From the human T2T-CHM13v2.0 reference genome, Homo sapiens, in assembly GCF_009914755.1 (NCBI RefSeq), contig NC_060927.1: a stretch of DNA of 64,000 nt; one strand, written 5' to 3'. Position numbers and translations under genes: made by a program. Under the pieces are notes generated by a model. It had not been told where the DNA came from. It saw nothing but the letters and a program-made list of their open reading frames with translations, and did not search any database. Shown one piece after another: positions 215-4,171 of this stretch; position 1 is the first letter of the stretch, and each line of letters starts with the position of its first letter.

Positions 215-257
215 GAATATTCTGAAGCAATTCTGTTTTAGGGTGGTGGCATGGAAT
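215..257 (+). promoter_or_regulatory. CACNA1D: Editing-site complementary sequence (ECS) for CACNA1D exon 41 (IQ-domain A-to-I editing)
   Basis: GAATATTCTGAAGCAATTCTGTTTTAGGGTGGTGGCATGGAAT pairs antiparallel and without gaps with 4063-4105: 30 Watson-Crick pairs, 8 G:U, 5 mismatches. An ECS in the intron preceding exon 41 is known for Cav1.3. Confidence 0.88.
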
Positions 258-2899
258 CAGAGTTATCTCTTGCCAACTGTATTCCCCTACGTTGTTTCTT
301 TAAATACAGATGCATGCTTCAGAATAGTGGGCTATGTCTGTCTATGTAAACCTTCCCCCTGCGAGCTGAGGACCCCGCTCCTCCCTCGCTCCACCTCACA
401 TCTCTCTTGGAACGCCACCTTCATCACAACCAGCCAGACTCCCACATTGATGCCCATCCTCGTGAAATGCCCTCGGAGGGTGTCATTTGCATTAGTGTGA
501 AACTTCATTTCTTTTCATTTTACCAAAAGAAAAGTCCAGAATTTAGCTCTCCATCGAAGCTCCCTTCCTTTGAAAAGCTGATCAACTTTTAGCTTTATCA
601 GACTTCTAGTAGAGTAGAAATCTTCTTCTTTCTTGGTCCAATAACTGGACCTCGCCTTTTCTCTCTATTTCTTAAAATGGATTGGAGTTTAGGATGACAG
701 GTTTTAATCTATTCCACAACGGCAGCGAGAGGCAGTGTGAGGCACAAGAAGAGAGAAGTGGGGCCTTAGGAGGGATGCAAGGCTTTGCAAGCTCCCTGCC
801 TGTGTTGAGTGATGTGCCCAGTGCAGGGCTTATCCGGGCTGAATCTCATGTGAGTGCTGTGGCCACGAAGGAAGTTCCGAAGGCAGTGGCCATCAGGCTT
901 TGGTGCATAGACTCTGGAAGAGTTGCCGGACAGGGCTTGGTTCTCCACATTCATCATTTGTCTGTCTTTCCTCTTTTATCCTTCAGTAGGCCCATGTCCC
1001 CAACCTTTCCTGCATCACAGCATACTTAGAAAAGGATATTTGCATACCCCTCTGGGAACAGATGTGGAGTTCTTGAGGCTGAGGGCCTCAGCATCCCCTA
1101 CACCATCACCTGGTCAAGAAGCAGGAGACTGAGTAAGGCCAGCCTCCACTCCAAGTGGCTGGGACTGGCAGATGTGGGGTGCTCAGGAAGCCCCTTTTAG
1201 CCCTGGTGATAGAACTGAGTCAGATGCTTGTCTTGGGTGGCTTTGCTAGTGTGCTGTGAGGTGTGGCCTGGCTCCTCATGAGCCTGATGATGAGATCAGG
1301 AATGAGCTGTGGATCTGTGGATACATGTCAGGCTTGCTTCACTCCCAGTGGCCCGGGGGTCTCCGCTGCCCCCTCACCATCAGTGCTGAGCCGCCTCATC
1401 TCTGCCTCTCAGCTCAGGTTCTCACCTCTGCTCTTCAGCCTTCCCGTGCCATCTTGTGGGTCCTTTCCCTTCATTTCAGAAGCTCTCTCTCCTCCCCAGG
1501 ACTCTCCTCCATCCATGACCTGGATCCTTTGCTCCTTTGCCCTGAAGAGCACACTGAGCTGCCTCCATTGCCTTCTTTTCAGTCCGGAGCCCAGATGGCC
1601 TCCTTGTATTCATTCCTTCTCTTCCTTCCTGTTCTGTCCTGCTGTAGCTTTGACTTTTCTTGTTCTTAGGAACTCTTCCTTGGGCCCAGTCTCCTAATTA
1701 GCACAGTGTCTCAATGGAGAAGACGAAGTGACCCTTGAGTTCTCTCCTGCAGAGCTCTGGGTGGGTCTGCCTCTACTCTGGAGGCTGAAGGGAGATCAGA
1801 GTTAGGCCTGTATTTGCTAGAAGCATCAGGGTGGAATGGGGTGTGGGTCTTCTTCAGGTAGAGCCAGGGCGTTTTCTGGGCCCCACAGAGAAGACACAGA
1901 GCCCTGGAATATAGAGGAAGGCTGTGGCATGGCAGGCCACCAGAGACTCTCCCTGGGGTCCCTGGAGTCATTAGCCAGACAACAGCGTGTCCACTTTTTG
2001 TGTGCAGCCTGGGAAAGGGATACACTTGCATGGTGTGAGAGGCAGCTCTGAAGAAGCCCAGCAGCCAGTGTGGCTGGAGACGGCCATCTCTGGAGAGGTG
2101 GTATGAAGGATAGGATCCCAGACTCAAGGAGCACACTGTCCTGTGGTAAGGTCCCGGCTTGACTGAGCTGGGCAAGTCATTTAGCCCTCTCCATCTGTTG
2201 GAGGGGGTGGTGGTGAGCAGATCCACCATGTCAGAGTTGTGAAGAGGCCATGAGACCCACATGGAATTCTTCTGACACAGGGCTTGGCATCTATAGATGT
2301 CCAACAGTAGGGGCTGGCTAGAGCCAGAGCTGATATTCCAAACATACCCTGAGCAAATGGGGAGGCTGGAGAGTACAGCGAGGGGTGAAATACCAGGACC
2401 TGAGTGGTCTCTGCTCACCTCCTGCCTTCTTGCCTATGGACCTTGCATCATTAGACAAGCCGAGACAGATTAGGAACCATGTTTTACATGCTACTCAGAG
2501 TCTTTGGCTTATACCTGGGTGGCCCCTACACCACTCCAGGACTATCTTAGCTTAGGTTTAGAAGGAACAGAACACTTCTCCAGGCCAGACCACCTGAGAC
2601 AGCCTTCTCACACAGTAACACTGAGTGGCTTCTGACAGGGAGGCCTGGAGAGGCAGCCCAAGGAGGCCCGGGCATCTCCAGTGGGGACCACAAGATGTTG
2701 GCAGCACCTCCTGGATGGGCACTAAGTGAAGCCCACCCCGGGTACATTAGTGAAGGATGATGGTTCTCCATGTCCCCCAGCCCATCAAGCTTCAGGATCC
2801 ATGTCAATGGATGCCACCGTCAGCACATTTTAAAATAAGGGTGACTCTGAGGGCTCATGATCAACATCAAGTGCCCAGCACTTAAGACAGCCTGAGCCA

Positions 2900-3060
2900 G
2901 GTGGCTGAGTGCTTTACCTGCTTCCTCCCACATCATCCTCACGGCTCCTCTGAGAGGCTTATCCCCACTTTACAGATGAGAATACAAGCTCAGAGAGGTT
3001 GAGCCCCTTGCCCCCACATCAGCATGTAGATCTTGCAAGGGTGGCCTGGCCTAAAAGCCA
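2900..3060 (-). mobile_element. MIR SINE fragment
   Basis: cccactttacagatgagaatacaagctcagagaggtt matches the MIR core in reverse. Confidence 0.6.
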
Positions 3061-4040
3061 GCTGCTCTGTAGCCTTTGGACCAGCAACCATTCCTCCTTC
3101 CAGCCTCTGCAAGTTGTGGTCAGTGGCCCCCAGGGCCCCACATGGCCCCACACACATGGGACGGAGTACTAAAGTGGTCACAAGCTTTACCCCCAAGAGA
3201 CACAGCACACTGAAGATTTGGTAGCAAGCAGCCGTGGGAGAGCCATGGGGCACATTTACACGTCCAAAGTGGTTTACCATGAGACAGCCAGAGCCTCTAT
3301 TCTGCCTCATGCATCACCTTTAAAGTCATCAGCAGAGTTCTGATTCCCCAACCATACACGTTGGAGGTTGTTTCTGAACAAAGCAAAAATAAGCCCAGCT
3401 CAACTATGAGGTTGGTTGGAGCTGTCACTACAGTGCAGAAAATGAGCTGTTCAGAATTACAAACCAAGAAATGGTATATGGAGCTTATTGGTGGAGAATA
3501 GGGGGCGGGGAGCTCATGAAAATCTGAATTTGCAGTCACTTTTCTAAACCTTCCTCTCCTTCTGAGCATGTATGTCACCTTTCTAGGTCTCTATCTTGAG
3601 ACATCGGGATTTGGACGGTTAATTGCCCTTGATAAGTTTATGGTAGTTATACATGCAAATCCCTATGCACAGGGGTGAAATGTGGCCCGTGAAGCCTCTT
3701 TTTGTTTTGTAATTTTTATTTTAAGTAAATAACCAAGACAGCATTTCATAGTGTTACTAATATGCTGCTCTATTAAACTCATAACAAATATATTATTTTC
3801 TGCAACCTAGAGTATCAGTTCATTTAACTGACACTAATTTTGAGCCTTAGTTGCTTTGCAAAACCTTGCTTTTTGCTGGTTTGAGACCCCTGTGTTATAT
3901 GCTGAGACCTCGGTGCCTTCTGCGCCGGACCGCCCACCCGCCCCACTCTGCCCCTGCCCCTGCCCCAGCCAGAAGCAAGTGTTTAGGCTCTTGGTCTAAT
4001 GTGCTGATTCGGGAGAGCTCTGTCTGGTCTCTCCGTTTAG

Positions 4041-4171
4041 ATGATGAGGTAACCGTGGGGAAGTTCTATGCCACTTTCCTGATACAGGACTACTTTAGGA
4101 AATTCAAGAAACGGAAAGAACAAGGACTGGTGGGAAAGTACCCTGCGAAGAACACCACAATTGCCCTACAG
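4041..4171 (+). CDS. CACNA1D: Cav1.3 alpha-1D exon 41 (literature numbering), IQ calmodulin-binding domain
   Basis: ctccgtttag|...|GTGAAT. Encodes (D)[47 protein letters not shown] codons at 4082-4093. Confidence 0.98.

What the first reader, a model, noticed from the sequence alone, without database searches (positions are those of the whole stretch)
215..4105. Long-range 43-bp RNA duplex between a deep intronic element and the IQ-domain exon of CACNA1D
Seen: 215-257 pairs gap-free with 4063-4105 (partner positions sum to 4320): 30 WC, 8 G:U, 5 mismatches, across about 3.8 kb. Eight of the 13 non-WC positions are G:U wobbles, which points to selection on RNA rather than DNA structure. The duplex is centred on ATA-CAG-GAC-TAC (IQDY). 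A4092 (Tyr) faces C228, the A:C mismatch ADARs favour. A4084 (Ile) and A4086 (Gln) pair with U next to a U:U mismatch. Established: ADAR2 recodes Cav1.3 IQDY to MQDY, IRDY or IQDC in the CNS, weakening Ca-dependent inactivation, and an upstream intronic ECS has been reported. This is therefore most likely the known element. Inference: deep-intronic variants at 215-257 could alter channel gating without touching an exon.
Basis: partly seen in the sequence, partly recalled or inferred. Interest (0 to 1): 0.8.

Follow-up and report, generated by a model that had tools for sequence, protein, structure and literature searches.

The report
Known CACNA1D RNA-editing duplex, confirmed
A short stretch inside a CACNA1D intron pairs with the IQ-domain exon 3.8 kb downstream to make the double-stranded RNA that the editing enzyme ADAR2 needs; the pairing is real and well beyond chance, but this element was already published and tested in 2018 and 2022.

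Summary
Window 215-257 pairs gap-free with 4063-4105: 30 Watson-Crick pairs, 8 G:U and 5 mismatches. It is the best of 63,958 sense-strand offsets in the window, at 38 pairs against 30 for the next. The predicted duplex energy is -44.8 kcal/mol, and 0 of 1000 dinucleotide shuffles reach it. It forms in the minimum-energy fold of the whole 4.1 kb. Forbidding it costs 12.1 kcal/mol.

This is the published editing-site complementary sequence (ECS) of CaV1.3 exon 41.
- Huang 2018 describes a 40-bp, four-bulge duplex about 3700 nt upstream in mouse. Deleting the ECS abolished editing.
- Shanmugam 2018 places the ECS about 3800 bp upstream, with CTGTATT 20 bp downstream in primates. In the window that motif lies at 277-283, exactly 20 nt after 257.
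- A 2022 paper shows that mice lacking the ECS have no editing.

Three L-type paralogue exons show no comparable partner and use ATC, not ATA, for the isoleucine.

Verdict: already known, so interest is low. I could not test cross-species conservation.

The parts
215..257 (+). [quoted passage not shown] It starts 1332 nt into the 5158-nt intron that precedes the IQ exon.
   Evidence: Pair counts; inverted repeat I1; unique best partner of the exon arm; intron start at window -1117.
4063..4105 (+). Exonic arm of the duplex. It covers the codons for ...[14 protein letters not shown], including IQDY at 4082-4093.
   Evidence: The genomic part of the published Mini_Rev primer maps to 4099-4115.
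4084..4084 (+). I/M site (ATA to ATG). It is paired with U236, has a 5' neighbour U, and lies beside the U4083:U237 mismatch.
   Evidence: Editing of this codon is reported.
4086..4086 (+). Q/R site (CAG to CGG). It is paired with U234 and has a 5' neighbour C. It is reported as much less edited than the other two sites.
   Evidence: Huang 2018 passages: no significant editing at the CAG codon in the minigene and a much lower level in native transcripts.
4092..4092 (+). Y/C site (TAC to TGC). It faces C228 in a 3x3 internal loop (228-230 / 4090-4092) and has a 5' neighbour U.
   Evidence: Huang 2018 places the TAC adenosine in the second bulge.
4041..4171 (+). IQ-domain exon, called 'exon 41' in the editing papers. 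It is the first of the 9 exons that the hub's table lists in this window for the 48-exon NM_001128840.3.
   Evidence: Hub annotation; translation; the published human primer Hum_Rvs maps to 4149-4170.
277..283 (+). CTGTATT, the primate form of the SRSF9-like motif published as lying 20 bp downstream of the ECS. It serves here as a positional anchor. The authors report that deleting it left SRSF9 repression unchanged.
   Evidence: paper section; position.
195..213 (+). Possible outer extension of the stem. It pairs with 4108-4137 in the 4.1-kb minimum-energy fold. Confidence is low, because the two-piece cofold gives a different extension.
   Evidence: The mouse minimal-construct forward primer has its best match at 192-205, with 2 mismatches.

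Best explanation
Window 215-257 is the human copy of the published ECS of CaV1.3 (CACNA1D) 'exon 41'.

In the unspliced transcript it folds back over about 3.8 kb of intron onto 4063-4105. This forms an imperfect stem of about 40 bp with four interruptions. ADAR2 binds this stem before the intron is removed and deaminates A4084 (Ile to Met) and A4092 (Tyr to Cys), and much more weakly A4086 (Gln to Arg). This recodes the calmodulin-binding IQ motif and changes channel gating.

Shown here: the duplex, its uniqueness, its stability, its strand specificity, and the placement of the three adenosines.

Taken from papers: ADAR2 dependence, loss of editing on ECS deletion in mouse, conservation, and the functional effects.

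Inferred: that the human element behaves as the deleted mouse element does.
For: Structure:
- 38 of 43 positions pair gap-free.
- It is the best of 63,958 offsets, with the next at 30.
- The duplex energy is -44.8 kcal/mol; 0 of 1000 shuffles reach it.
- 37 of the 38 pairs form in the minimum-energy fold of 101-4200.
- Penalising all arm-to-arm pairs raises that energy from -1449.3 to -1437.2.
- The antisense transcript would give only -28.5.

Specificity:
- The intron arm is single-copy in the genome, 1 match of 1 candidate.
- In the three L-type paralogue IQ exons (contigs 12, X and 1; I name them CACNA1C, F and S from recalled map positions), the best gap-free partner within +/-10 kb has 28-30 of 43 pairs. 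Their best duplex energies (-36 to -39) lie within about 1 kcal/mol of the next independent hit, so there is no outlier.
- CACNA1D stands 11 kcal/mol clear of its next hit.

Identity with the published element:
- Huang 2018 (passages): a 40-bp duplex between exon 41 and an ECS 3700 nt upstream in mouse, with four bulges. The TAC adenosine is in the second bulge, and the ATA and CAG adenosines lie between the second and third. Similar duplexes are reported in human and rat.
- The predicted structure here has exactly four interruptions (219; 228-230; 237; 244) with the same placement.
- Shanmugam 2018 (section 19 read in full): the ECS is a conserved block of intron 40 about 3800 bp upstream of the sites, with CTGTATT 20 bp downstream in primates. 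In the window this is 277-283.
- Published primers map to 4149-4170 and 4099-4115.

Function, from papers:
- Deleting the ECS in the mouse minigene abolished editing, and ECS plus exon arm alone sufficed for it.
- Mice lacking the ECS have 0.096% I/M and 0.0% Y/C editing.
- Adar2 knockout mice have only unedited transcripts.
- Overexpressing ADAR2 raised editing of the endogenous human transcript in SH-SY5Y cells.
- I to M attenuates Ca-dependent inactivation.
Against: - The published ECS sequences appear only in figures (Huang Suppl. Fig. S1; Shanmugam Suppl. Figs S14, S15, S19A). I could not see these; I read only the S1 legend. A search of the one supplement file held for Shanmugam found no mention of CACNA1D. 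Identity therefore rests on distance, stem anatomy, the flanking motif and primer positions, not on a letter-for-letter match.
- The deletion experiments I read about were done on the mouse element. In the passages I read, the 4012-bp CACNA1D minigene was edited, but no ECS deletion in it is described, nor is its species stated.
- I did not test conservation or covariation, because no vertebrate genome other than this one is reachable.
- Energy models ignore co-transcriptional folding and bound proteins.
- The partition-function run timed out, so I have no pairing probability.
- A local hairpin (221-229 with 234-242) competes for the intron arm.
Confidence: 0.95

Rival explanations
1. The long-range helix mainly serves splicing. 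By looping out 3.8 kb of intron it would bring splice sites together or govern skipping of the IQ exon, with editing as a by-product.
For: The helix encloses most of the intron and ends 22 nt inside the exon. A 2025 paper reports a correlation between editing level and exon 43 splice form (and the abstract).
Against: Mice lacking the ECS showed no change in Cacna1d mRNA level or in C-terminal alternative splicing, while editing fell to zero. A minimal construct with only the two arms still supports editing.
Confidence: 0.03
2. The complementarity is a chance match or a decayed inverted duplication with no present function in humans.
For: Nothing positive. Ten inverted pairs of 20 nt or more occur in 1-4300, so short ones are common.
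Against: At 42-43 nt it is far longer than the other nine pairs, which are 20-28 nt. It is unique among 63,958 offsets. 0 of 1000 shuffles reach its energy. It is centred on the three known edited adenosines. Published deletion data also argue against it.
Confidence: 0.01
3. The element acts as DNA, or in an antisense transcript, rather than in the sense pre-mRNA.
For: None found.
Against: Eight G:U pairs become C:A mismatches on the other strand, and the antisense duplex energy is -28.5 against -44.8. The 3.8-kb spacing makes a DNA cruciform implausible; this last point is established knowledge, not tested here.
Confidence: 0.01

Closest known systems
CaV1.3 (CACNA1D/Cacna1d) exon-41 ECS: Huang et al. 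2018 NAR (PMC6101491), Shanmugam et al. 2018 NAR (PMC6101530), and the ECS-deletion mouse in PNAS 2022 (PMC9371748)
   Same: Same gene, same exon, same three adenosines and same distance (about 3.7-3.8 kb upstream). The stem length is about 40 bp, with four interruptions placed the same way. The flanking CTGTATT lies 20 nt downstream. This is the same element.
   Different: Nothing substantive. The papers number the exon 41 and the intron 40. In the hub's table the exon is the first of the 9 that lie in this window for the 48-exon NM_001128840.3. I count 43 aligned positions (37-38 pairs) where the paper says 40 bp.
GRIA2 Q/R-site exon-intron duplex, the founding ADAR2 recoding substrate (recalled knowledge; not examined in any call)
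   Same: An imperfect stem between a coding exon and an intronic complementary sequence. Editing must precede splicing, and ADAR2 is the enzyme.
   Different: As I recall, the GRIA2 ECS lies a few hundred nt downstream of the site. Here it lies upstream and about 3.8 kb away.
ADAR2 substrates with an ECS inside the same exon: KCNA1, SON, XKR6
   Same: Short site-selective stems edited by ADAR2 and repressed by SRSF9.
   Different: Their ECS lies in the same coding exon, so editing does not depend on an intron or on the timing of splicing.

Membership tests
ADAR2 exon-intron ECS duplex (site-selective recoding substrate) | An imperfect double-stranded RNA forms between the edited exon and an intronic complementary sequence on the same transcript | tested here: met
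   38 of 43 positions pair. The energy is -44.8 kcal/mol with 0 of 1000 shuffles reaching it. The duplex forms in the 4.1-kb minimum-energy fold.
ADAR2 exon-intron ECS duplex (site-selective recoding substrate) | The edited adenosines lie inside the stem, in contexts ADARs accept (paired with U or opposite C; 5' neighbour not G) | tested here: met
   A4084 pairs with U (5' neighbour U). A4086 pairs with U (5' neighbour C). A4092 faces C (5' neighbour U). The neighbour preferences themselves are recalled knowledge.
ADAR2 exon-intron ECS duplex (site-selective recoding substrate) | Editing depends on ADAR2 | not testable with these tools
   From papers only: Adar2 knockout mice have only unedited transcripts, and co-expressing ADAR2 edits the minigenes.
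ADAR2 exon-intron ECS duplex (site-selective recoding substrate) | Removing the ECS abolishes editing | not testable with these tools
   From papers, for the mouse element only: the ECS-deleted minigene and the ECS-deleted mice.
ADAR2 exon-intron ECS duplex (site-selective recoding substrate) | The ECS is conserved across species that edit the site | not testable with these tools
   No other vertebrate genome is reachable. [quoted passage not shown]
The published CaV1.3 exon-41 ECS specifically | Position: preceding intron, about 3700-3800 nt upstream of the sites | tested here: met
   The arms are 3805 nt apart (258-4062). A4084 lies 3827-3869 nt downstream of the arm. The arm lies in the intron -1117..4040.
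The published CaV1.3 exon-41 ECS specifically | About 40 bp with four bulges; TAC adenosine in the second bulge; ATA and CAG adenosines between the second and third | tested here: met
   The duplexfold structure has stems of 4+8+6+6+13 = 37 pairs and four interruptions: 219; 228-230 opposite 4090-4092; 237; 244.
The published CaV1.3 exon-41 ECS specifically | Primate motif CTGTATT 20 bp downstream of the ECS | tested here: met
   The motif is at 277-283 on the + strand and the arm ends at 257. It has 12 matches in the 64-kb window, so the motif alone is weak; its exact spacing is what counts.
The published CaV1.3 exon-41 ECS specifically | Letter-for-letter identity with the published human ECS | not testable with these tools
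   The sequences are in figure images. I read only the legend of Suppl. Fig. S1, and the one supplement file held for Shanmugam had no hit for CACNA1D.

The most novel reading that the evidence does not exclude
Adenosines in the intronic arm may themselves be edited, and this may tune the exonic sites.

A230 sits opposite C4090, an A:C mismatch like the one at the Y/C site. A G there, standing in for inosine, is the most stabilising of all 129 single substitutions, at -5.8 kcal/mol. It would close the internal loop next to A4092. A240 sits in a UAG triplet and is paired with U.

Such an intronic site, possibly edited by ADAR1, would explain a suggestion by Costa Cruz et al. They found that the non-preferred ADAR slightly aids CACNA1D I/M editing and proposed an extra site in the intronic ECS. 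I found no report of such a site in the passages I read. No editing database was available.
Probability: 0.25. Interest if true: 0.3.

Novelty: already known. Interest (0 to 1): 0.1.

Why it matters
The element matters biologically. It is the cis-acting switch for recoding the calmodulin-binding IQ motif of a neuronal L-type calcium channel, and removing it in mice changes hippocampal excitability, plasticity and learning.

That is already in print, so this report adds little:
- Exact T2T window coordinates for the human element.
- A quantitative demonstration that the duplex is unique in 64 kb and absent from the three L-type paralogues.
- A note that single-base variants are predicted to weaken the duplex, not abolish it.
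- Two candidate intronic editing sites.

Tried and rejected
- The partition function of 101-4200, to obtain pairing probabilities, timed out at 300 s. I replaced it with a second minimum-energy fold in which all arm-to-arm pairs are penalised.
- Huang et al. 2012 (Neuron) is not held under the PubMed id or the PMC id I recalled. Statements about the original discovery rest on later papers that cite it.
- The supplementary figures with the published ECS sequences are images. I read only the legend of Huang Suppl. Fig. S1. The one supplement file held for Shanmugam had no occurrence of CACNA1D or ECS.
- Rfam at E up to 1 over 1-4400 gave 3 sub-threshold hits, none on either arm on the + strand. 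This is expected, since a split long-range stem is not a family model.
- Duplex energy alone did not separate CACNA1D from its GC-richer paralogues (-42.7 against -36 to -39). The separation appears only in the gap to the next independent hit and in the gap-free pair count.
- A search for papers holding both 'CACNA1D' and 'edQTL' found 0.
- No cross-species alignment was possible with the collections on hand.
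Full report
**1. The observation**

I read both stretches and counted the pairs with a script.
- The mismatches are 219:4101 (A:A), 228:4092 (C:A), 230:4090 (A:C), 237:4083 (U:U) and 244:4076 (U:U).
- Pairing ends cleanly: 213-214 and 258-262 are all mismatched.
- The repeat finder, which does not count G:U, independently reports arms 215-256/4064-4105 (42 nt, 71% complementary, 3807 nt apart). 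This is the longest of 10 inverted pairs in 1-4300; the other nine are 20-28 nt.
- The codons ATA CAG GAC TAC occupy 4082-4093.
- A4084 pairs with U236 next to the U:U mismatch, A4086 pairs with U234, and A4092 faces C228.

**2. More than chance**

- Sliding the 43-nt exon arm over all 63,958 sense-strand offsets of the window gives mean 16.1 pairs and sd 3.2. The maximum is 38, at 215, and the runner-up is 30, at 12887.
- RNAduplex gives -44.8 kcal/mol. With the intron arm dinucleotide-shuffled 1000 times the mean is -15.5 and the minimum -29.6, so 0 of 1000 reach the observed value.
- Among 6163 sliding windows over the gene span, the five best all overlap the ECS. The next independent one is -31.4.
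- Cofolding 200-270 with 4050-4120 gives -53.2, against -16.6 and -13.1 for the pieces alone.
- The minimum-energy fold of the whole 101-4200 (4.1 kb, -1449.3 kcal/mol) contains 37 of the 38 candidate pairs.
- Penalising every arm-to-arm pair raises the optimum to -1437.2, so the long-range stem is worth 12.1 kcal/mol in context. The intron arm then falls back on a local hairpin, 221-229 with 234-242.
- A partition-function run timed out, so I give no pairing probability.

**3. Strand**

The reverse-strand transcript would give only -28.5 kcal/mol, because the eight G:U pairs become C:A.

It is marginal against the null that transition-type mispairs are equally G:U or A:C: 8 against 2, P = 0.055.

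**4. Setting**

- The preceding coding exon ends at window -1118, with the donor GTCAGT at -1117. I found it by matching open frames to the contig-12 paralogue and then reading the junction.
- The intron therefore spans -1117..4040, which is 5158 nt. The ECS begins 1332 nt into it.
- The intron arm is single-copy in the genome.

**5. Paralogue control**

The exon's 43 residues find three strong paralogue exons, on contigs 12, X and 1, at 80, 72 and 67% identity. I name them CACNA1C, F and S from recalled map positions.
- Within +/-10 kb of each, the best gap-free partner of the equivalent arm has 28-30 of 43 pairs, against 38 for CACNA1D.
- Their best duplex energies (-36 to -39) lie within about 1 kcal/mol of the next independent hit, so they are background tail. 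CACNA1D stands 11 kcal/mol clear of its next hit.
- All three paralogues encode the IQ isoleucine as ATC, which an A-to-I change cannot turn into Met. CACNA1D uses ATA.

**6. What is in print**

Huang et al. 2018 (PMC6101491; passages read):
- They describe a 40-bp duplex between exon 41 and an ECS 3700 nt upstream in the preceding mouse intron.
- It has four bulges. The TAC adenosine is in the second bulge, and the ATA and CAG adenosines lie between the second and third.
- They report similar duplexes in human and rat (Suppl. Fig. S1; I read only the legend).
- Deleting the ECS abolished minigene editing, and a construct with only the two arms was still edited.
- ADAR2 overexpression raised editing of the endogenous human transcript in SH-SY5Y cells.

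The structure predicted here has exactly four interruptions with the same placement.

Shanmugam et al. 2018 (PMC6101530; section 19 read in full):
- They found the ECS independently, as a conserved block of intron 40 about 3800 bp upstream of the sites.
- They note the motif CTGTATT 20 bp downstream of it in primates. In the window this motif is at 277-283, exactly 20 nt after 257.

Published primers map to 4149-4170 and 4099-4115. The mouse minimal-construct forward primer has its only match with 2 or fewer mismatches at 192-205 (13 matches at 3 or fewer mismatches against 8.7 expected by chance).

Other papers:
- The 2022 PNAS paper (PMC9371748; passages) reports that mice lacking the ECS have 0.096% I/M and 0.0% Y/C editing. 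Their mRNA level and C-terminal splicing are unchanged, and their hippocampal physiology is altered.
- Costa Cruz 2020 (passages) shows only unedited transcripts in Adar2 knockout mice.
- Pinto 2014 lists the I/M site in the mammalian conserved set.
- A 2025 JBC paper (passages) shows that I to M attenuates Ca-dependent inactivation.
- Huang 2012 itself is not held.

**7. Mechanism**

Shown here: a unique, stable, sense-strand-specific stem with the three adenosines in ADAR-acceptable contexts.

From papers: ADAR2 dependence, the requirement for the ECS in mouse, and the effect on gating.

Inferred: the human element works as the mouse one does, and editing must precede removal of the 5.2-kb intron.

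The two well-edited sites have a 5' U and the weak Q/R site has a 5' C. This fits recalled ADAR neighbour preferences.

**8.

Of the 129 single substitutions in 215-257, the largest predicted loss is +7.2 kcal/mol and 53 lose 3 or more. That is less than the 12.1 kcal/mol margin. Single-base variants should therefore modulate the stem, not abolish it, whereas deletions would abolish it. A search for papers holding both CACNA1D and edQTL found none.

**9. Residual novelty**

A230 faces C4090, and a G there, standing in for inosine, is the most stabilising change at -5.8 kcal/mol. A240 sits in a UAG triplet. Either could be an intronic editing site of the kind Costa Cruz et al. suggested. I could not check an editing database.

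**10. Verdict**

The element is already known and experimentally tested, so interest is low.

Not tested here: cross-species covariation, a letter-for-letter match to the published figures, and any human deletion.

Noticed in passing
window 4082-4084; L009 and the reverse complements of L010 and L012 (paralogue IQ exons): CACNA1D encodes the IQ isoleucine as ATA, which editing can turn into Met. The three L-type paralogue exons all use ATC, where no A-to-I change can give Met. So both codon choice and the lack of an ECS-like partner keep I/M recoding specific to CACNA1D.
   Followed up: partly
window 3723-3855, minus strand: A sub-threshold Rfam match to an H/ACA snoRNA model (RF02714: 37.7 bits against a gathering score of 136; E = 2e-4 over 4.4 kb). 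It has two hairpins and an AGAAAA hinge, but it ends in ACU where the model has ACA. It also lies antisense to CACNA1D. It is probably chance in AT-rich sequence.
   Followed up: partly
window -406..3991 (L001 903-905 for the acceptor): The hub's table lists an exon of another transcript that spans -406..3991 and so contains the ECS. An AG lies directly before -406. I see no AATAAA or ATTAAA in 3900-3991. In such a transcript the ECS would lack its exonic partner. Whether this isoform is real was not examined.
   Followed up: no
window 309-330 with 3294-3315: A second long-range complement (22 nt, 82% complementary) lies just inside the ECS-exon loop. It forms in the 4.1-kb minimum-energy fold. 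It could shorten the effective loop, but it is no longer than other chance inverted pairs in the region.
   Followed up: partly
window 221-229 with 234-242: A local hairpin within the intron arm. It appears when the arm folds alone and when long-range pairing is forbidden. It is a possible kinetic competitor during the time before the exon is transcribed.
   Followed up: partly
window 8210-14362: The hub's table lists a 6-kb exon of other transcripts in the intron after the IQ exon. From recall, this may be the alternative terminal exon of the short CaV1.3 form (42A). It was not examined.
   Followed up: no
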